Source: Escherichia coli phage Wa28
Sequence record: LC788710.1
DNA length: 64,000 nucleotides
Strand: one strand, 5' to 3'
Shown: positions 3,257 to 52,757 of the stretch, piece after piece
How the letters are laid out: the number at the start of each line of letters is the position of its first letter
How positions within the stretch are numbered: the first letter of the stretch is position 1
The notes under the pieces: model-generated
Database searches by the model: none
What the model saw: the letters and a program-made list of their open reading frames with translations, nothing else
What the model was told of the DNA's origin: nothing
Program-made: the position numbers and the translations under genes

Positions 3257-5314
3257 TTACCTTATATGGATATACCCACTATTTAGGTCTATCTTCATCT
3301 TGTAGTATGCTTCAGGGTTTCCTGATAACGCAGCATTTCTATCGTAGATTATATTAACACCTATTTGTGATAAGAAGGCATTTCCTGCCACAATCTTATC
3401 AGCAGTTACAGTTCCATTAACAATCATGTTGCCATGAAGAACCATTGCAGGGTTAATCCATCCAGCCCCGTTCCATTGACGGGTAAATGCTGTTTGTGGA
3501 GCATTACTGTTAAATTGTGTTAGAACATCGTATTTAACCGGAGGTTTTCCAAAGTTATTTTGAAAGAATGCGTTAGCTTGTCCATCATCCCAACCGCCTA
3601 ATCCAGGAATACCCATGGAGTACATCCCAGGACCACGCTGTCCATCATGTCCTATAGTACCTTCAGTACCACTCCATTGAACTACATCAGACCAGCTAGT
3701 ACCTTCAAGAAGTTTGTTAGTAACTGGATCAAGTGTACCTGTAGTCGCATAGATATTTTGTGTCATATCTGTACGATTAGGTGGAGTTTTTGACCAACCA
3801 GGAGGTGGATAATCTTGTTCTAACGGTTTGGCCGGTAAAGATGTTGCTAACTTATAAACAAATACTGTTTGCTTACCTTGTAAACCAGTTCCAATATCTA
3901 CGTCACCATTTGGTGTTCCAATTACTACACCACTAGAAATACGCAGAGTAGTACCATCATAACGTATCCATTGTGTAGCATTACCAATGTCTAACTTAGC
4001 TTTGGCAGAGGTATTATCCATACCCATCCAAATACCAGAGTTATTATCTCCCCAAGATTTACCTTGAGTATAAATTGCTGGATTATCTTTACCAGATAAG
4101 TTAGTCATGATAAAGTTCGCAGCATTAATATCTCTAGTAATTACTTTACCATCGACGTTAACAACACGATTTATAGGGTCGAAAGAAATAGGTGCTTTTC
4201 CTTCTTCATCTAGCAGACCAATGTTAATAGCACCAGTAGCTGCATCAATTAAGAATGTCTGTCTCCAGATTTCTCCATCTTTCATACTACCCTTAATAAA
4301 GGCATAGTTAACATCAATACCAGTCTCATTGACAAAACTATTATCTAGAGGAGTATCTTCATTCAATATAAATGTTACAGGAGCTGATTCTGTTATATCT
4401 TGCTTATTTGGTCCCCAGGCAATTGATGAAACCTTAAAGGTATGTTCAACTTTCCATGGGAATGATATAATCGTTGCAGCTCTAGCAGCACCCACGTTTA
4501 TCTTTTGAGCTTTAGCCCATCCGGTTTTAGCGTATTCCTCGGAGTTTATATAAGTAACCAAGAACTCACGAACGTTAGCACCAGCACCACGTTCCCATTC
4601 CCACTCAATTCTAACATCATATCGTTCTTTACCATCAGCAATTCGTGCAGCTTTAAAAACAATATCGATAGGTGCAGTAGGTGGAACAAAGTTATAAGCT
4701 ACAGTTAGAATATTAGGAAACTCGTAGTATCCTGAAGAATCAACTGTAACACCATCAGGCATAGTTACTTGACCAGATATTCTGATCTTATAGTCTCCGA
4801 TAGGAACTCCACCAAATTTAATAGTAGAACCTAAAGCCCCAATATAATATTTAGTCCAAGGACTGTCTTCAGTGGCTGTACTTTTTAACTCAATAGTACA
4901 GTAACTTGCTTCACCAGTTGTTTCCACAACAACTATCGGTGCGCCCACCCCAACATCCGCAGGTTCTGACTCAGATCTTGCTGCGACAATTATTGGCTTC
5001 TCTTTTGTTTTAAAGTTAGTTTCATTAGAGAGGTTAATACCAATTTTTGCATTTAAAAGTTCTGAGTCAATAATCGAGTCATAAAAAGCTCCCTGAACCT
5101 GATAGGTAGTTGAGGGAGTTAAATTATTGATCATAACAAAGAAAGTGTCGATTCCAGTGAAATCTCTTCTATCCACTTCTTCGCCAAGTTTAAGCCAGAA
5201 TGATCTACCGATAACATCGTAGTCGGTATAGATAGAATGCTGGATATACGCCATCGTATACCCAGTCATAATACTATTTAAGACCATCTTGGCTGGTGCA
5301 TTATTCGAAATCAT
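3257..5314 (-). CDS. baseplate / tail tip protein (pb4-like)
   Basis: 685 aa ORF; synteny downstream of hub protein. Confidence 0.55.
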
Positions 5315-23760: not shown

Positions 23761-25542
23761 TTAGGTTAGGCGTTGAACTGTTACACGTAGTCTTGGCAAG
23801 AAAACAGCTGCCGCTTCTGCAGCGTGAATGATAACACCCAACTCAACGTTGCCATTACCAAGGTTTTTAATAGTATAAATATATCCGTTCCTACGGAAAG
23901 CAAACTCATCAGGCCTACTAGCCCAAGTTTGTGTATAACTATAGGAAGTTGTACTGTGATAAGGTACTAGATATCCAGGTGGCAGAGTAAGAATCTGGTG
24001 GAATACACCATCACCAGCTGTATAACTTTGTTGACGTCTACCCTGTACCTGCCAAGCGCTACCGCCGTAAGTACGTACAGGCATTCCAGCAGTATTAAGA
24101 TTACCCATAATAACTTCAGTAGTTAATATAACAGTAGAGTGAGCATTTGGTAATCCCAACCAAACTGTGGCCAAAGGTGTGTAGAAGTCACCAGCACCAG
24201 GGTAGGATGGAGTTATATCGTCCCCTACATAAGTACTTGCAACGTTGCCTGGGAATAACCTGAGGGGTACAGTACTAGGACTCCACACAGGTCCATGTTC
24301 ATTACCAATGGAGTTGGTATTAGTATCTACATACCATTGTTTACCTACACCAAATTTATATAAGCTAATTTGAGAAGCTGCACCACCATAGTTAACAGGA
24401 GACCACAACCCGCCATTACTAGAGCCGATAAATTCACATCGTGCAGTATTATCACCAAAAACTCCGGTATACGCAGCGTTATTACCAACATACTCCATAT
24501 CAGGGCGATAGCCTAAGTTTCCGAAAGCATTCTGGTTAATAAATTTATAGCCTGTATTTGGTAGGCTAACACCTTTAATAGTAAAATTAGACGGAGATAT
24601 TAGGATATCTGAACCGGTAAATGGATTACCAGAAACTCCCATACTACCATTAGAATAGCGCAGATTTAGCACATACCAAATAACCTTAGTTGGCGTAACG
24701 TTATACCAGTCCTGTACATATACCTTTCTAGCAGACTGAGCAGCCATATTAGAAGTAGAACCTCTACAAACATATATTTTTTCTGGGTATGCAGGAGATT
24801 GGTAAAGAACGTTTACGTTATCTGGTAGTACGCCTTTTTTACCTGCGAAGCCACGAATATTAGAACTACAAACATAAAACCAATCATGGCCTCTACCAGC
24901 AGAACCAATAGGCGCCTGCCAGTTAGGTTCCCAATAATCTGCGTTACCACCATCTAAAGGAACAGTAGAGACACCAGTTGGAAAACCCATAAGACTCCAG
25001 GCTCTGGCAATGGCTTCACCAGCAGAAACACCACCAGGTCTAAAGATCTGGAAACCAGAGGACTGTAGTAAACTGCCTCCAGAACCTTGCCTAGCAATAG
25101 ATTCCTCATGACCAAGACCACCATTATAGATATAAGTACCATGAGCTAAACTATCACCGATCGCAAAAGCAGATGTTACAGATAATTCAGCACCAGCACG
25201 TGGTGGGTCTTCAAAGAATGATAAGAACTGGCCAACCTGAGATTGAGTACCATTCAGAAATCCACGATGAGTACCGTTTATCTCAATAGCAGTTAATATA
25301 ACTCTACCCGGATCATTGGATTTAATATTTATAATATCCCAAGGCATCTGAGTAACAAAGTATCCATTACCTGCATTACCTAGGGCTGCTTCATAAGTCC
25401 CATCAACTAGGACAAATGGCATATCTGAGTGGAAGATACTATTAGTATTTGGAGAGTAGTGCTGATTTATATCACCACCATTAGCAGCGTTTAGAGATAA
25501 TACAGTTTTACCATCACTAAATTTTCCTGCGAAAAAACTCAT
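23761..25542 (-). CDS. receptor-binding protein (pb5/Oad-like)
   Basis: 593 aa Gly/Asn/Ser-rich ORF located between terminase and a divergent llp-like lipoprotein gene. Confidence 0.55.
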
Positions 25543-25625: not shown

Positions 25626-25892
25626 ATGAAAAAGTTACTAGCCATCGTAGTTGCAGCAGTAGTGTTGACGGGTTGTGTGCCAGCTCCCGAGCCATTTTGT
25701 AAGGCATATGTGAAGTCTTATGGTCATGTTGGTGAAGAACACTACGCTTTAGATATTCGAGAAGCACGTACTGTGGGCTACCGATTCCCTAAAACTCAGT
25801 TACGCACTAAGTTTGGGTGGTGGGATTTGTCACAGTTTGATCTCAAATATGGTGATTGCAAATTTAAACTAGAACAATCTGGTCACTTGTAA
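25626..25892 (+). CDS. llp: Llp-like lytic-conversion lipoprotein (receptor-blocking superinfection exclusion)
   Basis: 88 aa; signal peptide with lipobox LTGC; divergent and adjacent to the RBP gene. Confidence 0.6.
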   Translation: MKKLLAIVVAAVVLTGCVPAPEPFCKAYVKSYGHVGEEHYALDIREARTVGYRFPKTQLRTKFGWWDLSQFDLKYGDCKFKLEQSGHL

Positions 25893-37587: not shown

Positions 37588-38478
37588 TTATTCATCGAAC
37601 ATGAGATTTCCTTTCATCCCCATCTCCGCATACTCCATGAGTTCTCCTAGGGATCTCACAGGGTAATCTACTTTACTGAAGTTATCATAGATCTTACATG
37701 AACTCTCGTACAACTCGTTAGGTATCTGCAATTTGTTATCAGTTAGCTTCTCATAACGTGTAGAAGATTTTGTACCTTCAAACAGAACTGCAATAACTGC
37801 GGCGATTTGTTTGGTAAGATCATCTGCTCCTAGAATTATTCTATTAATAGCAATCGTTACTTCATGCTTAGGTTTCACAGGTGGAAGGATAGGCTTGAGA
37901 TCCTTAGGTAAAGGTTCTGTTCCTAGGAATCCTTCTTTTGTGCGGAACCAATAATTATCTAGATCAGATATTGTCTTAGACTTATTCCATATAGTGAAGC
38001 AAGGTTTATTTCCTTCACGATCTCTGTATTCACGAACTGGAAGATAATGATCAGGGAATGAGTTGAGTGCATCATGCATTGGTGAGCCTGTCTTTTTAAA
38101 TGACAAACCGTACAACTCATTATAATTCATAACTTCATCTTCATAAACATGGAAATCTTTATATGCTGGAAGATTAAACCATTCCTGAAGTGAATGAACT
38201 GCAAAACGTTGTGCCCAAGCATGCATCACAAGAACTCTGTACTCTTTTACTTCATCTTTTGGAGAAGTACCTCTAACTGTTCTAGCTGACCGAATACAGA
38301 ACATCTCAACAACACGTCTCTCGTTTAAAGAAAGCTCAGAGTAACAACGTTCATGGCAACCTTCTAGCATTTCTAGAAGTTCACGTAGTTTCTCTACATC
38401 GACCGGTGGAAAAGGTCTCTCTTCCACCGCGAATTTACCAACTACACCTTTCGGCTTTCTATTACTATAAAATCCCAT
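37588..38478 (-). CDS. hypothetical protein
   Basis: 296 aa ORF. Confidence 0.45.
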   Translation of the reverse strand: MGFYSNRKPKGVVGKFAVEERPFPPVDVEKLRELLEMLEGCHERCYSELSLNERRVVEMFCIRSARTVRGTSPKDEVKEYRVLVMHAWAQRFAVHSLQEWFNLPAYKDFHVYEDEVMNYNELYGLSFKKTGSPMHDALNSFPDHYLPVREYRDREGNKPCFTIWNKSKTISDLDNYWFRTKEGFLGTEPLPKDLKPILPPVKPKHEVTIAINRIILGADDLTKQIAAVIAVLFEGTKSSTRYEKLTDNKLQIPNELYESSCKIYDNFSKVDYPVRSLGELMEYAEMGMKGNLMFDE

Positions 38479-44495: not shown

Positions 44496-45086
44496 TCAAA
44501 CATTGATATCTCCCCTCAATACCGCTGCCACATCTTCATCGATTTGGAGTATTTCACCAGTAGTGCAGTTAACCACTTTATCATAGCTTGTGAACTTGCC
44601 AGACACAATATCCTCTAGAGGAATAGGAGTCTTGCTCATCTCAAAAGAGACGTTGATATAACGTGGGTCACGCACAGAATTGGTGTGCACATGTCCGTGA
44701 ATGTTTAGCTTACCACGAAGTTCTGCTTCGTGCAATGGACAATGTGACAGCCAAAACTTCTTGCCACCACCTGTTTGCTTACCTAGAGCCTGAATATCAT
44801 CATAAACGTCTACAAGATCTTTAATACGCAGACCCTGACGTTCAGCATCGTGGTTGCCCATGATTAATTGGTTAGGCACATTGTAGATAACCGACTTCAA
44901 TTTAGCCAACCCTTCACGCCCCACGGCAATATCTCCTAGCAATACAAGTTTTGTACGCTTGCCAATGTGCTTGGACAAAGTATCTAGGATATATTCATCG
45001 TGCTCTTTCCTGTTCTTAAACCACGGACGGAAGCGAAGAGTTCCAGGATGGTCTAGGTGCAAATCCGACCAGAATTTAACTTTCAT
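44496..45086 (-). CDS. calcineurin-like metallophosphoesterase
   Basis: 196 aa; DLHLDH, GDIAVGREG, GNHD motifs. Confidence 0.55.
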   Translation of the reverse strand: MKVKFWSDLHLDHPGTLRFRPWFKNRKEHDEYILDTLSKHIGKRTKLVLLGDIAVGREGLAKLKSVIYNVPNQLIMGNHDAERQGLRIKDLVDVYDDIQALGKQTGGGKKFWLSHCPLHEAELRGKLNIHGHVHTNSVRDPRYINVSFEMSKTPIPLEDIVSGKFTSYDKVVNCTTGEILQIDEDVAAVLRGDINV

Positions 45087-45292
45087 TACTTATTCCTTAC
45101 ACAAGTTGAGGTAATAGTATAACTATCGTAGAATATACCTTTTGTGAGTCCAATTTGGATGCTGGAATTATCCAGCTTACCTCCAGCTACGTCACACAAG
45201 TGTCTAGTATCTTCTGCGGTGAATCTCATACTATTATCATAAGGATCACATCCAGCTAGTATTAGTACTGATACTAGTAGTAATCTCTTCAT
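45086..45292 (-). CDS. putative lipoprotein
   Basis: 68 aa; signal peptide with lipobox LAGC. Confidence 0.4.
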   Translation of the reverse strand: MKRLLLVSVLILAGCDPYDNSMRFTAEDTRHLCDVAGGKLDNSSIQIGLTKGIFYDSYTITSTCVRNK

Positions 45293-47394: not shown

Positions 47395-47811
47395 TTAGTG
47401 TGCTTGATGTGGGAATCTCTTCCTAACTAAGTACATAGTTATTGGATATATTGAATACATAAGTATAGGGGAGAAAAGGGTGAAATAAGCCGTGACTCCC
47501 CCAGCTAACATTAGTGGTATCAATGCTAGAGTAAGGGCCATAAGAATCATACCGAATGAGACAGCCAGGGCTACTGTGATGCAGTTCTCTAACTCCATCC
47601 AAAGCCAACAATATTTCGTATTCCTCTGGCAGTTGCATTTGCAAACGCCGAATGTGCCCATAATTATATACTCTAGCCCATGAACGACTTTCTTTAATGT
47701 ATCATTTTGGGTAACTAGTGCGACAACAGTGAGAATTATCATTAAGATGAAAATTACTAGGCTTATTTTCCATATTCCTAGTAATATCATGGTGAATAGT
47801 TCTGCAAACAT
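47395..47811 (-). CDS. integral membrane protein
   Basis: 138 aa, multiple TM helices. Confidence 0.4.
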   Translation of the reverse strand: MFAELFTMILLGIWKISLVIFILMIILTVVALVTQNDTLKKVVHGLEYIIMGTFGVCKCNCQRNTKYCWLWMELENCITVALAVSFGMILMALTLALIPLMLAGGVTAYFTLFSPILMYSIYPITMYLVRKRFPHQAH

Positions 47812-47886: not shown

Positions 47887-48300
47887 TCAGACTAATTCTA
47901 CGTGACCACCGTCGTAAGTACCACGATCGATCTCATCATGATAATCACCAGAACTATTCCAGTCGGCACCAAAACGAAGTTTGACACCAAGTTCCTTACC
48001 GGCTTGTTCAAAAGCCTTCTTAACAGCCCAAAATGCTTCCAGATCTTTCCAATCAATCTTTCCATTAATATATGGTGCAAAATCGATAGCGTCTCCAGTT
48101 ACATGCTTACTCTTGCTAGGGTCTTTCAAAAATGAAGTACCATTAGCAATGTTTTGGGCACTTTGTGCTACTGTACGAATACCCTGTACGATTGTGAAAT
48201 CATATGGAGATAATTCTAAAGCCCTACGAGCTACCTTTTGTAGCTCGGGCTTAACAGTTGCTAATTGTTTTTCGCTATTTTTACCAAATTTAAAACTCAT
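47887..48300 (-). CDS. lys: endolysin, L-alanyl-D-glutamate peptidase (M15-like)
   Basis: 137 aa; H...D...H metal-binding pattern (SKHVTGDAIDF ... DGGHVEL); adjacent to holin-like gene. Confidence 0.7.
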   Translation of the reverse strand: MSFKFGKNSEKQLATVKPELQKVARRALELSPYDFTIVQGIRTVAQSAQNIANGTSFLKDPSKSKHVTGDAIDFAPYINGKIDWKDLEAFWAVKKAFEQAGKELGVKLRFGADWNSSGDYHDEIDRGTYDGGHVELV

Positions 48301-48953
48301 ATAGATCTACCTAATGATCTCCGTTGTGGGGAACAGAGCTTTGCTAAGTACTCATTAAATTGTTCCGAATCAGCTGTATCTACGGGTTTATCCTTCCATG
48401 CAATACCTATGTATCCAGCATAGATATTATTTAGGTTGAAATATGGACAAGTGTAGACGTAATTAAAAGTAATGTTCTTAAATGCTGGTATATTTGACCC
48501 TGTATATTTATTTACTTTTACACTTAAATCCGCAGCGTAGTTAAAGCCTTCCAGGTGACGTCTATAAAGTTCAGACGTCTTATTTACTGCTTTATCGGCC
48601 AAGTCAGCCCTATCCAATTGCGCATTGCTTTCCCATGCAATAATGTTTGAATAATCATTTATAGCATCTGGTTTATACTTTACTACAAAAACGGCATCCG
48701 CACCAGTCTGGGAGAAAAGAACCATACTCTTTTCTCGTGCTACATTAGGAAAGTTATCTATCCTTTGGGTTTGAACATCCTGTAAAACCGAAGACGTGGA
48801 GAAAGTCTTTAAAAATGACATCACCTCGCTAGTGTTACTTACAAACAAGAAAATAATGACAGCAACTAAGATAGTTAGCAGACGTTTTAGTAGTGAAGCT
48901 GGATCTTTCGCTTCTTGTAGCAGTATCGTTAATAGTTGTATAAACTTTTCCAC
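48297..48953 (-). CDS. putative holin
   Basis: 218 aa; N-terminal TM helix; immediately upstream of and overlapping endolysin start. Confidence 0.5.
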   Translation of the reverse strand: MEKFIQLLTILLQEAKDPASLLKRLLTILVAVIIFLFVSNTSEVMSFLKTFSTSSVLQDVQTQRIDNFPNVAREKSMVLFSQTGADAVFVVKYKPDAINDYSNIIAWESNAQLDRADLADKAVNKTSELYRRHLEGFNYAADLSVKVNKYTGSNIPAFKNITFNYVYTCPYFNLNNIYAGYIGIAWKDKPVDTADSEQFNEYLAKLCSPQRRSLGRSI

Positions 48954-49063
48954 TTGTAACCTCCTCTAACCACTACCATTATACTAATTCTAGAGTAAAA
49001 TTACAATGTGTTTTTTAAGATCACTTCTGGAGCACAATTTTTTGTCGTTGTCAAGAAGAATTT

Positions 49064-49099
49064 TAGGCAAAAGAAAAGCCAGAGTCGTTAAACTCTGGC
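49064..49099 (-). terminator. rho-independent (bidirectional) terminator
   Basis: 9-bp stem AGCCAGAGT/ACTCTGGCT flanked by A/T runs on both sides. Confidence 0.6.
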
Positions 49100-49109
49100 T
49101 TAAAACTAC

Positions 49110-49709
49110 TTACACTTCTCCATGTTCTTCTGGATGCGGGGCTTGAGCTTTACTACACTGCTCTTTACGATAATTCGCCAAAATTTCAATACGCTTATTG
49201 ATTTCTTTGCTGTTGAGATAGATATTCTTATTCTCTTTTACCATGTCCTCGATTTCGTCGACAGAGAAGAACGGAAAGTAAATATCTAGCATCATATCTT
49301 CTACAAACTGGTTGTAGGATTCATATGCTTTCTTGATTTCTTGACCTTTCTCGCAGAATCCGCCAGAGAACGTATGTCCCATAAGCGTAGCATGTGGATG
49401 TACAACCCAACCGTGGCAAGATAGGAAGATTGTGCAGTAAGCAGAAGCACTAGGACCGAGTAGGTGTCCAATAACAGTTCCACGACAGTTAGCGATTAGG
49501 TTAGATAGTTGTGCAGCAGTATCAACGTAACCACCCGGCCCATTAATCATCAGATTAATTTCATCATCTTCACCAGCCTGCATCAGTATCATGGATAGGT
49601 CACGATACTCATCCGGTGAGCCTAATTCTTCATCAAAGAAAAAGGTATATTCGTTAGATTGGCGAACAGTGTGAAACAGGTTAGTCTTTTCTTCTTTCTT
49701 GTTAGTCAT
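49110..49709 (-). CDS. ClpP-like serine protease
   Basis: 199 aa; INGPGGYV and catalytic-region-like segments. Confidence 0.5.
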   Translation of the reverse strand: MTNKKEEKTNLFHTVRQSNEYTFFFDEELGSPDEYRDLSMILMQAGEDDEINLMINGPGGYVDTAAQLSNLIANCRGTVIGHLLGPSASAYCTIFLSCHGWVVHPHATLMGHTFSGGFCEKGQEIKKAYESYNQFVEDMMLDIYFPFFSVDEIEDMVKENKNIYLNSKEINKRIEILANYRKEQCSKAQAPHPEEHGEV

Positions 49710-49721
49710 AGTGATCCTTAA

Positions 49722-50474
49722 TTATCCAACTAGTGGTTCTAGCTCTAAGTCACAGAAGTGGTACACATCGGTACGAAGTGCATCAAGTCCGTTGAAGGTA
49801 TTCTCAAATTTATGAGAAATATATTTTTCAGGAATACCGCTTTCAGACGGATGATCTGTCTCGATGCGATACTTATTAGTAATACCAGATTCAACCTTAA
49901 TAAGCATGGAATCCATATCTAGAGTATTGGTTTCCATGATTAGTTCTCCCTCATTGGGGAAACGCACATCGGTAACGATTGCGACGTCTGGGTCGTCTTT
50001 ATCGATGGATTGCTCCAGAATTATGAGCCAAATGCGTTCATGCACCAGCTGCCTTCCTAACTCAGTACCTACAAGCTGTAGCATTTTTCTTGGGGAGATA
50101 AATACGCTATACAGCGCATCATCAGCTTGCCCAATTAACTGCTGAGGATCAAGGTATTTTCCTTCAAATATCGGCCAAACGTACGAGAAGTCCTCAAACT
50201 TATCGATACCATACTTAAACCATACGTCTCTAGCTCGCTCCAATTGAGATTGTGTGACTGTAAACCATTGGTCAATCTCTTTTCCCCTGCGCTCTCCCAG
50301 AAACTCTGGAGTTACCCCGAGGATTACGGATGCAAGTTCGTAAACGGGTTTAGCAAAACTGTAACGACGGGATAAACACGTTGGGAACGTGTCATTACAC
50401 CAGTCAATCATTAATTCTGCAACGGTATCTTTTCCCGCACCAGCCTCACCATGTAAACCGACTAATACTGACAT
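49722..50474 (-). CDS. dnk: deoxynucleoside monophosphate kinase
   Basis: 250 aa; P-loop GEAGAGKDT at N-terminus. Confidence 0.6.
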   Translation of the reverse strand: MSVLVGLHGEAGAGKDTVAELMIDWCNDTFPTCLSRRYSFAKPVYELASVILGVTPEFLGERRGKEIDQWFTVTQSQLERARDVWFKYGIDKFEDFSYVWPIFEGKYLDPQQLIGQADDALYSVFISPRKMLQLVGTELGRQLVHERIWLIILEQSIDKDDPDVAIVTDVRFPNEGELIMETNTLDMDSMLIKVESGITNKYRIETDHPSESGIPEKYISHKFENTFNGLDALRTDVYHFCDLELEPLVG

Positions 50475-50827
50475 TAATCTTTCCTATTTGTAATGGGTGG
50501 ATAGTAAACTAAGCAACGTTTTTCTTGTAAATCTTGACGATAGAAGCAAACCATACCAGTCAGTCGTGAAATGTAAGAGTAAACTGCTTCCTCGCATTTT
50601 GCTTTTGCATTCCAATCTTTGTAAGGTACAACAACTACTACGCCATCTTCGCCATTCGTAGCTAATTTCTTTTCGAATTTGAAATCAAAGCTACACGGCT
50701 GAAGTCCTTTAGGCCAGTCAACATGGGCTTGCTTTAACTCATGTGAAGGCTCTGGTTTTATTTCTTCTGCACAGCCTGTGATTGTGATTGCGGCTGCGAG
50801 CAGTACTCCAAGTTTCCAGTTAAGCAT
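50474..50827 (-). CDS. lipoprotein (o-spanin candidate)
   Basis: 117 aa; lipobox ITGC; start embedded in 3-prime end of the upstream TM/coiled-coil ORF. Confidence 0.35.
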   Translation of the reverse strand: MLNWKLGVLLAAAITITGCAEEIKPEPSHELKQAHVDWPKGLQPCSFDFKFEKKLATNGEDGVVVVVPYKDWNAKAKCEEAVYSYISRLTGMVCFYRQDLQEKRCLVYYPPITNRKD

Positions 50828-51207
50828 GCTAATCTTTCCTCGAACTCCTTACTCTGCTTTTTAGCAATTAATGTAACCAATCCAGGCTTTGCAGCTATAA
50901 TGTCTTGACGACTAAGTGCTTTATCAAGCTGACTAATTTTCTTGTCTAGATCTGCTTGGGAAACATTATTCATTGTGAAATACTGATTCATACGAGTTTC
51001 ACGAAGTTCACTTTCAGCTTTCACATTATTAAGGGAAGTCTCTAGGGACGTAATCTTTTTAGTAGCTACTGCAAGATCACCTGCTAGAGTCTCAACCTTA
51101 TTTACTAAGTGATAAGCACCGAATCCGATACCTATCGCAAGACCAGCTCCCAGGATATACCACTTACCTTGCCATATTCCTGAAAGAAGTTTTTGTATCA
51201 AATCCAT
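50758..51207 (-). CDS. membrane-anchored coiled-coil protein (i-spanin candidate)
   Basis: 149 aa; N-terminal TM helix then coiled coil; 70-nt overlap with downstream lipoprotein ORF. Confidence 0.35.
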   Translation of the reverse strand: MDLIQKLLSGIWQGKWYILGAGLAIGIGFGAYHLVNKVETLAGDLAVATKKITSLETSLNNVKAESELRETRMNQYFTMNNVSQADLDKKISQLDKALSRQDIIAAKPGLVTLIAKKQSKEFEERLACLTGNLEYCSQPQSQSQAVQKK

Positions 51208-52007: not shown

Positions 52008-52397
52008 TCACTCTTGTTTACTTAATTCTCTAGCACGACGTAGCGATCCAGCGGTTCTCCATAGTTTAATGTCGTCAACAACTTCTTTGTAGGGAGCAAT
52101 AGTAAGACCTAGCGGCCCCGCTACCAACAGTCCAAAGAAACCAATTACACGCATGTAAAGCAAGCATTCTTTGGGAGTCATTGACTGGACAGCCTGTCTT
52201 TCCTCAGCACTGTCGAACTCGTGTTCTCGATCGTCTAAACGTAGGTACTTAATAAACCATTCAGCAGAATATTCATCCAGATGACGAATAACTGCAATAG
52301 CATAGCCTAAACCAATAATAAACCATGCTGCTACAATGAATAAAATAAAGCTCATGATATCTCCAGTTAAAGTTGAGGTCAGCGACCAACTCACCAC
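52008..52397 (-). CDS. membrane protein
   Basis: 129 aa, two TM helices. Confidence 0.4.
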   Translation of the reverse strand: MVSWSLTSTLTGDIMSFILFIVAAWFIIGLGYAIAVIRHLDEYSAEWFIKYLRLDDREHEFDSAEERQAVQSMTPKECLLYMRVIGFFGLLVAGPLGLTIAPYKEVVDDIKLWRTAGSLRRARELSKQE

Positions 52398-52472: not shown

Positions 52473-52757
52473 TTACTTGCTCTGCATTTCAGCGCGAAAC
52501 TTTTTCATCTTACGAGTTTTACGGAAGAAGAAGTAAGTAGCTACTGGCCCGAACAAGGTGTCCATGATAAGCATACCTGACATAATGAATTTGAACATCT
52601 TTTCATCGTCAAATTCTGCTAATTCTGGTGGACGATATTTGTTTATAACATAAAGAATAACATCTTTATTTTTAGAGATATACAGATCATCAATCAGGCT
52701 GTAAATCGCGACAACTGCACCAATAACAAACCACAAAGCAAATGGAGAGATAATCAT
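52473..52757 (-). CDS. membrane protein
   Basis: 94 aa. Confidence 0.35.
   Translation of the reverse strand: MIISPFALWFVIGAVVAIYSLIDDLYISKNKDVILYVINKYRPPELAEFDDEKMFKFIMSGMLIMDTLFGPVATYFFFRKTRKMKKFRAEMQSK

What the first reader, a model, noticed from the sequence alone, without database searches (positions are those of the whole stretch)
50474..51207. Embedded spanin-like gene pair located away from the holin-endolysin cassette
A 149-aa protein with one N-terminal TM helix and coiled coil (50758-51207) overlaps by 70 nt, in another frame, a 117-aa lipoprotein with lipobox ITGC (50474-50827). This is the architecture of i-spanin/o-spanin pairs, but the pair lies ~2 kb from the holin (48297-48953) and endolysin (47887-48300), separated by ClpP-like and dNMP kinase genes. 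A further small lipoprotein (45086-45292, lipobox LAGC) exists. Together with llp this phage encodes at least three lipoproteins.
Basis: partly seen in the sequence, partly recalled or inferred. Interest (0 to 1): 0.5.

Follow-up and report, generated by a model that had tools for sequence, protein, structure and literature searches.

The report
Known T5-type overlapped spanin gene pair
This is the already catalogued two-gene "spanin" pair that T5-like phages use to break the bacterial outer membrane at the end of infection, so it is real but ordinary.

Summary
On the minus strand, a 149-aa protein with one N-terminal transmembrane helix (50758-51207) overlaps a 117-aa lipoprotein (50474-50827, lipobox ITGC) by 70 nt in another frame. 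The pair lies about 1.5 kb upstream of a T4-type holin and an M15 endolysin, with dNMP kinase and a Clp-like protease between them.

The interpretation as an i-spanin/o-spanin pair is also correct, but it is not new.
- The window is 100% identical over the 1.1-kb stretch searched to E. coli phage Shin27, a T5-like phage.
- The two proteins fall in the same PHROG families as the tested T4 spanins PseT.3 and PseT.2. The two Cys essential in PseT.2 are conserved here.
- The T5 reference genome annotates the orthologues T5.045 and T5.044 as PseT-like.
- Kongari et al. 2018 describe a "T5 family" of overlapped spanins with exactly a 70-bp overlap.
- Gene order and overlap are conserved across Demerecviridae, and both genes are under strong purifying selection (dN/dS about 0.07).

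Two corrections. The architecture is "overlapped", not "embedded". The extra small lipoprotein (45086-45292) has an invariant Asp at +2, which signals inner-membrane retention, and has no i-spanin partner. Its "Rz-like spanin" database label is therefore doubtful.

Novelty: already known. Interest: low.

The parts
50758..51207 (-). i-spanin gene (149 aa). A type II inner-membrane protein with TMD at residues 17-35, a periplasmic helical domain with heptad repeats at 31-65, a conserved AAKPGLV motif, and two invariant C-terminal Cys (128, 136). Orthologue of T5.045 and homologue of T4 PseT.3.
   Evidence: (phrog_739, E=3e-38)
50474..50827 (-). o-spanin gene (117 aa). An outer-membrane lipoprotein precursor with lipobox ITGC, lipid-modified Cys19, Ala at +2, and invariant Cys45/78/94/105. 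Orthologue of T5.044 and homologue of T4 PseT.2.
   Evidence: (phrog_812, E=5e-30)
50758..50827 (-). The 70-nt out-of-frame overlap. It encodes the last 23 codons of the i-spanin (ACLTGNLEYCSQPQSQSQAVQKK) and the o-spanin signal peptide plus lipobox (MLNWKLGVLLAAAITITGCAEEI). The central part, which covers the hydrophobic core and lipobox, is nearly invariant among 27 unique relatives.
48297..48953 (-). T4 T-type holin (218 aa). It is the upstream trigger of the lysis pathway.
   Evidence: (PF11031, E=8e-111)
47887..48300 (-). Endolysin, an M15 peptidase of the T5 Lys type (137 aa). It overlaps the holin stop by 4 nt.
49722..50474 (-). dNMP kinase gene. It is not a lysis gene. Its start overlaps the o-spanin stop (TAATG), so the two are probably translationally coupled and co-transcribed.
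49110..49709 (-). Clp-like serine protease gene. It is an intervening gene and the last gene before the terminator-like hairpin.
49076..49101 (-). Terminator-like hairpin (11 bp stem plus T-run) between the protease and holin genes. T5 carries an annotated terminator at the same position. This suggests that the spanins and holin-endolysin are separate transcription units.
48978..49006 (-). Sigma-70-like promoter match (TTGTAA-17-TATAAT, 10 of 12) just upstream of the holin. T5 carries an annotated promoter at the same position.

Best explanation
The two overlapping genes encode the two-component spanin of a T5-like phage. They are the orthologues of T5.045 and T5.044 and distant homologues of T4 PseT.3 and PseT.2.

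Inferred mechanism, by analogy with the lambda and T4 systems:
- The i-spanin inserts in the inner membrane N-in/C-out through its single TMD and extends a helical, partly coiled-coil domain into the periplasm.
- The o-spanin is lipidated at Cys19. It is sorted to the inner leaflet of the outer membrane because +2 is Ala.
- The o-spanin binds the C-terminal part of the i-spanin, forming a bridge through the peptidoglycan mesh.
- The T-type holin permeabilises the inner membrane and the M15 endolysin degrades the murein.
- The spanin complexes are then free to rearrange and fuse the inner and outer membranes, completing lysis.
- The conserved Cys probably form the stabilising disulfides (o-spanin 94/105, as in T4 PseT.2; T5-family-specific o-spanin 45/78 and i-spanin 128/136).

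What is shown: gene structure, targeting signals, homology, conservation and purifying selection. What is inferred: localisation, complex formation, disulfides and the membrane-fusion role.
For: - Features of both proteins fit the spanin definition.
- PHROG 739 and 812 'Rz-like spanin' match at E=3e-38 and 5e-30. T4 PseT.3/PseT.2 and T5.045/T5.044 hit the same two PHROGs.
- BLASTP to T4 gives 29% identity for both partners. The motif MVCFYRQDLQEKRC aligns to the T4 M-CYYRQELKEDKC.
- Kongari 2018 (PMC6139136) shows that T4 pseT.3/pseT.2 complement lambda Rz/Rz1 amber mutants and that both PseT.2 Cys are essential.
- The same paper lists a T5 spanin family with an overlapped architecture and a 70-bp overlap.
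- The T5 RefSeq record annotates T5.044 and T5.045 as PseT.2/PseT.3-like Rz-like spanins. Curated phage records such as Sepoy, Sw2 and SuperGirl call them i-spanin and o-spanin.
- 27 of 30 close relatives (plus the window itself) have the identical 70-nt overlap.
- The more distant Demerecviridae keep the overlap and the same gene order (i-spanin, o-spanin, dnk, protease, holin, endolysin) at 37-46% protein identity: 88 nt in Sugarlandvirus, 76 nt in Kamaji, 34 nt in My1.
- The lipobox Cys, Ala at +2, all four o-spanin Cys and both i-spanin Cys are invariant.
- Median dN/dS is 0.065 for the o-spanin and 0.072 for the i-spanin outside the overlap.
Against: - No direct experiment on a T5-family spanin was found in the searchable literature. 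Function rests on homology to T4 at only 29% identity.
- Neither protein has a Pfam hit or a solved-structure relative.
- The single-sequence AF2 models are of low confidence (pLDDT 55 and 64), so the structural agreement with PseT.2 and PseT.3 is weak.
- The genes sit with nucleotide-metabolism genes rather than in a lysis cassette, and probably in a different transcription unit from the holin.
Confidence: 0.93

Rival explanations
1. The pair is a membrane protein plus lipoprotein with a non-lysis role, for example superinfection exclusion or receptor masking like Llp or Cor. It resembles spanins only in its topology signals.
For: - The pair lies away from holin-endolysin, among early and metabolic genes.
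- The phage encodes other lipoproteins with exclusion-type roles.
- No T5-specific lysis experiment was found.
Against: - Sequence homology of both partners to the functionally tested T4 spanin pair, including the essential Cys pair.
- In T4 the spanin genes are likewise remote from t and e.
- The two genes co-occur as a pair across the whole family.
Confidence: 0.04
2. The 117-aa lipoprotein ORF is a chance or non-expressed overlapping ORF, and only the 149-aa gene is real.
For: Many deposited genomes annotate only one gene here, or list the genes as 'hypothetical protein'.
Against: - The ORF extends 284 nt beyond the overlap and has its own Shine-Dalgarno sequence.
- It is intact in 555 phage records, down to 26-46% identity.
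- Its dN/dS is 0.065.
- It persists as a free-standing gene in relatives where an endonuclease gene separates the pair.
Confidence: 0.01
3. The small lipoprotein at 45086-45292 is part of the spanin machinery, as a second o-spanin or a u-spanin. This is what its PHROG and RefSeq label 'Rz-like spanin' implies, and it would make this a phage with redundant spanins.
For: - phrog_6073 'Rz-like spanin' matches at E=1.8e-26.
- RefSeq labels it 'Rz-like spanin' in several phages, including Stitch and My1.
Against: - Asp at +2 after the lipid Cys is invariant even at 38% identity. This is the E. coli Lol-avoidance signal for inner-membrane retention (established knowledge).
- It has no C-terminal TMD, so it is not a u-spanin.
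- Its neighbours are a soluble 122-aa protein and a phosphoesterase, so there is no i-spanin partner.
- It is absent from T5 itself, which lyses normally.
- It shows no similarity to phrog_812.
Confidence: 0.05

Closest known systems
Phage T5 spanins T5.045 (i-spanin) and T5.044 (o-spanin): the 'T5 family' of Kongari et al. 2018 (PMC6139136)
   Same: - 94% (i-spanin) and 90% (o-spanin) protein identity to T5.
- Identical 70-nt overlap.
- Identical downstream gene order: dnk, protease, holin, endolysin.
   Different: - In T5 an HNH homing endonuclease gene (hegF) sits immediately upstream of the i-spanin. Here it is absent, and the i-spanin start overlaps the T5.047 homologue by 44 nt.
- The first ~15 cytoplasmic residues of the i-spanin differ accordingly.
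Phage T4 PseT.3 / PseT.2 two-component spanin (experimentally shown to complement lambda Rz/Rz1)
   Same: - Same PHROG families (739 and 812), 29% identity each.
- Same domain order. [quoted passage not shown]
- The genes are remote from the holin and endolysin genes, and the partner holin is T-type.
   Different: - T4 genes are 'separated' (the annotated ORFs overlap by only 4 nt), whereas here the overlap is 70 nt.
- T4 PseT.3 has no periplasmic Cys and is 117 aa. Here the i-spanin has a ~30-aa longer C-terminal region with two invariant Cys.
- The o-spanin has two extra invariant Cys.
Lambda Rz / Rz1 (prototype embedded spanins)
   Same: Same functional logic: a type II inner-membrane protein with periplasmic coiled coil, plus an outer-membrane lipoprotein encoded in another frame at the 3' part of the same DNA.
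   Different: - No detectable sequence similarity.
- Rz1 is wholly embedded in Rz and is short and Pro-rich. The o-spanin here extends 284 nt past the i-spanin stop and is 99 aa when mature, with 7% Pro and predicted beta/alpha structure.
- The lambda genes are part of the SRRzRz1 cassette, whereas these are about 1.5 kb from the holin.

Membership tests
Two-component spanin (functional class; Summer 2007, Kongari 2018) | i-spanin: a single N-terminal TMD (type II, N-in/C-out) followed by a periplasmic alpha-helical or coiled-coil domain | tested here: met
   The only hydrophobic stretch is residues 17-35. Heptad periodicity at 31-65 exceeds the shuffles. AF2 places a helix at 25-79, with pLDDT 80-90 for residues 40-70.
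Two-component spanin (functional class; Summer 2007, Kongari 2018) | o-spanin: an outer-membrane lipoprotein signal (signal peptide, lipobox Cys, no Lol-avoidance Asp at +2) | tested here: met
   MLNWKLGVLLAAAITITG|C with Ala at +2. The lipobox Cys and Ala at +2 are invariant in 23 unique homologues.
Two-component spanin (functional class; Summer 2007, Kongari 2018) | The o-spanin gene is embedded in, overlapping, or immediately downstream of the i-spanin gene | tested here: met
   Overlapped by 70 nt in another frame. The overlap is conserved at 70, 88, 76 and 34 nt in relatives.
Two-component spanin (functional class; Summer 2007, Kongari 2018) | Periplasmic Cys available for intermolecular disulfides | tested here: met
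   There are 2 Cys in the i-spanin and 4 in the mature o-spanin, all invariant. Actual disulfide formation cannot be tested here.
Two-component spanin (functional class; Summer 2007, Kongari 2018) | Required for outer-membrane disruption; complements lambda Rz/Rz1 amber mutants | not testable with these tools
   No experiment on T5-family spanins was found. Complementation has been shown only for the T4 homologues.
T4 PseT.3/PseT.2 sequence family (PHROG 739 / 812) | Significant sequence similarity of both partners | tested here: met
   phrog_739 at E=3e-38 and phrog_812 at E=5e-30. The T4 proteins hit the same PHROGs at E=1e-37 and 5e-42. BLASTP gives E=7e-7 and 2e-7.
T4 PseT.3/PseT.2 sequence family (PHROG 739 / 812) | Conserved essential C-terminal Cys pair in the o-spanin (T4 Cys87/Cys98) | tested here: met
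   Cys94 and Cys105 align to the T4 pair, with the same 10-residue spacing.
T4 PseT.3/PseT.2 sequence family (PHROG 739 / 812) | Separated gene architecture and a Cys-free i-spanin | tested here: not met
   The overlap is 70 nt and the i-spanin has Cys128 and Cys136. This places the pair in the T5 subfamily rather than the T4 subfamily proper.
T5 spanin family (Kongari 2018) | Close sequence identity to T5.045/T5.044, with a 70-bp overlap | tested here: met
   94% and 90% identity to the T5 proteins, with a 70-nt overlap.
Lambda Rz/Rz1 (embedded spanins) | The o-spanin gene lies entirely within the i-spanin gene, and the mature o-spanin is short and Pro-rich | tested here: not met
   The o-spanin gene runs 284 nt past the i-spanin stop. 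The mature protein is 99 aa with 7 Pro.
o-spanin or u-spanin membership of the small lipoprotein at 45086-45292 | Outer-membrane sorting signal plus an adjacent i-spanin partner (o-spanin), or a C-terminal TMD (u-spanin) | tested here: not met
   Asp at +2 is invariant. There is no C-terminal hydrophobic segment. The flanking genes encode a soluble protein (phrog_7810) and a phosphoesterase.

The most novel reading that the evidence does not exclude
The pair is the known T5 spanin, but two details remain open.

(a) The T5-family complex may use a disulfide topology different from both lambda and T4. The i-spanin has a conserved two-Cys C-terminal extension that T4 PseT.3 lacks, and the o-spanin has four rather than two Cys.

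(b) The small conserved lipoprotein at 45086-45292 has Asp at +2 and is labelled 'Rz-like spanin' in PHROG and RefSeq. It may instead be an inner-membrane-anchored periplasmic factor of unknown role, such as exclusion or lysis timing.
Probability: 0.3. Interest if true: 0.25.

Novelty: already known. Interest (0 to 1): 0.08.

Why it matters
The result matters little beyond annotation quality. The record this window matches over the stretch searched (Shin27) and many other T5-like genomes list these genes as hypothetical proteins or omit the o-spanin altogether. A few even label the region 'putative terminase'. Correct labels can therefore be transferred to them. The result also shows that a spanin search restricted to the neighbourhood of holin-endolysin would miss the pair in the sampled T5-like phages (Demerecviridae), as it would in T4.

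Tried and rejected
- Pfam gave no hit for either spanin or for the small lipoprotein.
- A sequence search of PDB chains gave only chance-level hits with E above 0.2.
- Single-sequence AlphaFold models were of low confidence (pLDDT 55 and 64). I used them only for secondary structure and ran no fold search on them.
- Literature searches for an experimental test of T5 spanins returned only the 2018 bioinformatic survey.
- Two paper queries failed because a term had fewer than 3 characters.
- The phage collection, PHROGs and the literature had already settled the identity.
- Rejected: 'embedded' architecture, Rz1-like Pro-rich character, a u-spanin reading of the 68-aa lipoprotein, and a chance-ORF reading of the o-spanin.
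- The promoter-like count in the region is not above the shuffle expectation (10 found against 14.7 expected). The promoter assignment therefore rests on positional agreement with the T5 annotation only.

Full report
**Identity of the window.** The 1.1-kb region around the finding is 100% identical to Escherichia coli phage Shin27 (LC788709). It is 96-99.5% identical to many Salmonella and Escherichia T5-like phages, with 446 records matching by megablast. The closest curated relative, Salmonella phage Sepoy, is classified in Demerecviridae, Markadamsvirinae, Epseptimavirus.

**Check of the observation.** The ORF list and sequence and a feature script confirm every stated coordinate.

- The i-spanin candidate is 50758-51207 (-), 149 aa.
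  - It has a single hydrophobic segment at residues 17-35.
  - Lys residues lie on the N-terminal side, consistent with an N-in topology.
  - The only Cys are at positions 128 and 136.
- The o-spanin candidate is 50474-50827 (-), 117 aa.
  - It has its own Shine-Dalgarno sequence (GGAG 17 nt and GAGG 10 nt upstream of the start).
  - Its signal peptide ends in I-T-G-C, with Cys19 and Ala at +2.
  - Four further Cys lie at positions 45, 78, 94 and 105.
- The two ORFs overlap by exactly 70 nt in different frames. The o-spanin stop overlaps the dNMP kinase start (TAATG).
- A heptad-register test shows strong a/d hydrophobic periodicity at residues 31-65, immediately after the TMD. Only 0-1 of 500 shuffles reach the observed value.
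- A single-sequence AF2 model puts a continuous helix at 25-79 (pLDDT 80-90 for residues 40-70) and a second helix at 84-98.
- The gap from the o-spanin stop to the holin start is about 1.5 kb.
- The title word 'embedded' is wrong in spanin nomenclature. Because the o-spanin gene extends 284 nt beyond the i-spanin stop, the architecture is 'overlapped'.

**What it is.**

- The two proteins hit PHROG 739 (E=3e-38) and PHROG 812 (E=5e-30), both named 'Rz-like spanin'.
- I retrieved the T4 pseT.3 and pseT.2 genes. The T4 proteins and the T5 reference proteins T5.045 and T5.044 fall in the same two PHROGs.
- Direct BLASTP gives 29% identity for each partner (E=7e-7 and 2e-7). It aligns the i-spanin motif AAKPGLV with T4 VAHKPGLV, and the o-spanin C-terminus MVCFYRQDLQEKRC with T4 M-CYYRQELKEDKC.
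- Kongari et al. 2018 (PMC6139136) report that T4 pseT.3/pseT.2 complement the lambda Rz-am Rz1-am lysis defect. [quoted passage not shown]
- The same paper lists a 'T5 family' of i- and o-spanins: T5, EPS7, Stitch, SPC35, AKFV33, FFH1, DT57C, My1, phiR201 and Shivani. It states that the T5 spanins overlap by 70 bp. In Shivani and phiR201 they are separated by about 700 bp carrying a homing endonuclease gene.
- The T5 RefSeq record annotates T5.044 and T5.045 as Rz-like spanins, with notes on PseT.2 and PseT.3 similarity.
- Curated genomes label the orthologues i-spanin and o-spanin.

The finding is therefore an already described system.

**Conservation.** tblastn finds the o-spanin in 555 phage records. 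They range from over 99% identity down to 26-46% in Klebsiella Sugarlandvirus, Serratia Kamaji and T4-like Proteus and Edwardsiella phages, where the hit is annotated pseT.2 or Rz1.

I fetched 28 IMG/VR loci plus reference loci and mapped all seven genes.

- 27 of 30 close relatives have the same 70-nt overlap.
- Three relatives (L027-L029) have the genes 666 nt apart. The gap holds a 232-aa ORF with T5orf172/MUG113 and zinc-finger domains, which is a GIY-YIG-type homing endonuclease.
- Sugarlandvirus, Kamaji and My1 keep overlaps of 88, 76 and 34 nt.
- All of these keep the gene order T5.047-like, i-spanin, o-spanin, dnk, protease, holin, endolysin, even at 37-46% protein identity.
- The protein alignments show that the lipobox Cys, Ala at +2, all four periplasmic o-spanin Cys and both i-spanin Cys are invariant.
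- Outside the overlap, median dN/dS against the window is 0.065 for the o-spanin and 0.072 for the i-spanin.
- Inside the overlap, the central ~30 nt encoding the o-spanin hydrophobic core and lipobox are almost invariant.
- In the separated relatives the i-spanin ends shortly after Cys136 (…EYCRDERKNK). The last ~13 residues of the overlapped form are therefore probably dispensable read-through over the o-spanin signal sequence.

**Transcription context.**

- T5 carries an annotated promoter upstream of T5.047 and a terminator after the protease gene T5.042. It also has a separate promoter for the holin and a terminator after lys.
- The window has a strong terminator-like hairpin at 49101-49076 (-) and a 10-of-12 promoter match at 49006-48978 (-), in the same positions.
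- The total count of promoter-like sites is not above the shuffle expectation, so the promoter assignment is only consistent with T5 and not independently shown.
- The inference is that the spanins are co-transcribed with dnk and the protease, separately from holin-endolysin. This resembles the dispersed arrangement in T4.

**Mechanism (inferred by homology).** The holin triggers and the endolysin degrades the murein. Spanin complexes that bridge the periplasm are then released from the peptidoglycan mesh and fuse the inner and outer membranes. Localisation, complex formation, disulfide bonding and fusion were not tested here, and I found no T5-specific experiment.

**Structure.** Neither protein has a Pfam family or a solved relative. 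The low-confidence o-spanin model (pLDDT 55) has an unstructured N-terminal linker followed by strand-strand-helix-strand-strand. This is compatible with the beta-alpha-beta organisation reported for PseT.2, but it is weak evidence.

**The other lipoproteins.**

- *Scan of the window.* A lipobox scan finds three convincing lipoprotein ORFs, at 25626-25892 (+), 45086-45292 (-) and 50474-50827 (-). It also finds a doubtful TTG-start 47-aa ORF at 37811-37954.
- *The llp/cor-like lipoprotein (25626-25892).* It matches PHROG 1119, 'Cor superinfection exclusion protein'. It lies divergently next to the receptor-binding tail protein gene (23761-25542), which is the llp position in T5.
- *The 68-aa lipoprotein (45086-45292).*
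  - It matches phrog_6073, also named 'Rz-like spanin', and RefSeq propagates that name.
  - It has Asp at +2, invariant even in the 38%-identical My1 homologue, together with two conserved Cys and an AGGK-D motif.
  - It has no C-terminal TMD and no i-spanin neighbour.
  - It is absent between T5.034 and T5.035 of T5 itself, and it occurs in only 148 phage records.
  - By the established Lol-avoidance rule it should stay in the inner membrane, so the spanin label is doubtful.
  - Its function is unknown.

**Verdict.** Novelty is 'already known' and interest is low.

Noticed in passing
window 45086-45292 (-): A 68-aa lipoprotein (lipobox LAGC, Cys15) has Asp at +2, an inner-membrane retention signal, in all four aligned homologues. 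It also has two conserved Cys and an AGGK-D motif. PHROG 6073 and RefSeq call it 'Rz-like spanin', but it has no i-spanin partner and no C-terminal TMD. It is absent from T5 itself and present in 148 phage records, including Pectobacterium phage My1, always between the NinI-like phosphatase and the phosphoesterase genes. This is probably a propagated misannotation, and its function is unknown.
   Followed up: partly
window 25626-25892 (+), next to 23761-25542 (-): An 88-aa lipoprotein (lipobox LTGC) matches PHROG 1119 'Cor superinfection exclusion protein'. It is transcribed divergently from the 593-aa receptor-binding tail protein gene. This is the llp-equivalent position of T5.
   Followed up: partly
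L018:3130-3627; L027/L029:3315-4013; L028:4356-4892 (relatives; all three inserts absent from the window): The spanin locus is a hotspot for homing-endonuclease insertion in relatives. An HNH gene sits upstream of the i-spanin (T5 hegF). A T5orf172/MUG113 (GIY-YIG-type) gene sits between the i- and o-spanin and converts the overlapped architecture into a separated one. Another HNH gene sits between the o-spanin and dnk. The window carries none of them.
   Followed up: yes
window 51164-51207 (-) and alignment: The i-spanin start overlaps the upstream 232-aa gene by 44 nt. The first ~15 cytoplasmic residues of the i-spanin occur in three variants (MDLIQKLL..., MIKNFISS..., MRKWFVDL...). These variants track what lies upstream: the same allele of the 232-aa gene, a 55%-identical allele, or hegF.
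   Followed up: partly
window 47395-47811 (-): A 138-aa protein with several hydrophobic segments lies immediately downstream of the endolysin. It is the T5.039 homologue (annotated there with 'four transmembrane domains') and matches phrog_5944 of unknown function. Its position next to holin-endolysin makes it a candidate lysis-associated membrane protein.
   Followed up: no
window 52008-52397 (-) and 52473-52757 (-): Two small predicted membrane proteins (phrog_5468 and phrog_5265, both of unknown function) lie just upstream of the spanin transcription unit. By position they correspond to T5.048 and T5.049.
   Followed up: no
public records seen: Several annotation errors appear in relatives. 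Many T5-like genomes omit the o-spanin or call both genes hypothetical. ZBSTP12 and KPP2018 list a 'putative terminase' among the features under the match to this region. T5 RefSeq labels the 81-aa T5.036 'major head protein'. DevonBitter annotates a truncated 51-aa o-spanin (L032:4175-4330) in place of the full ORF starting at 4001.
   Followed up: no
window 37811-37954 (+): A TTG-start 47-aa ORF carries a lipobox-like motif (VTSC). It is probably a chance match.
   Followed up: no
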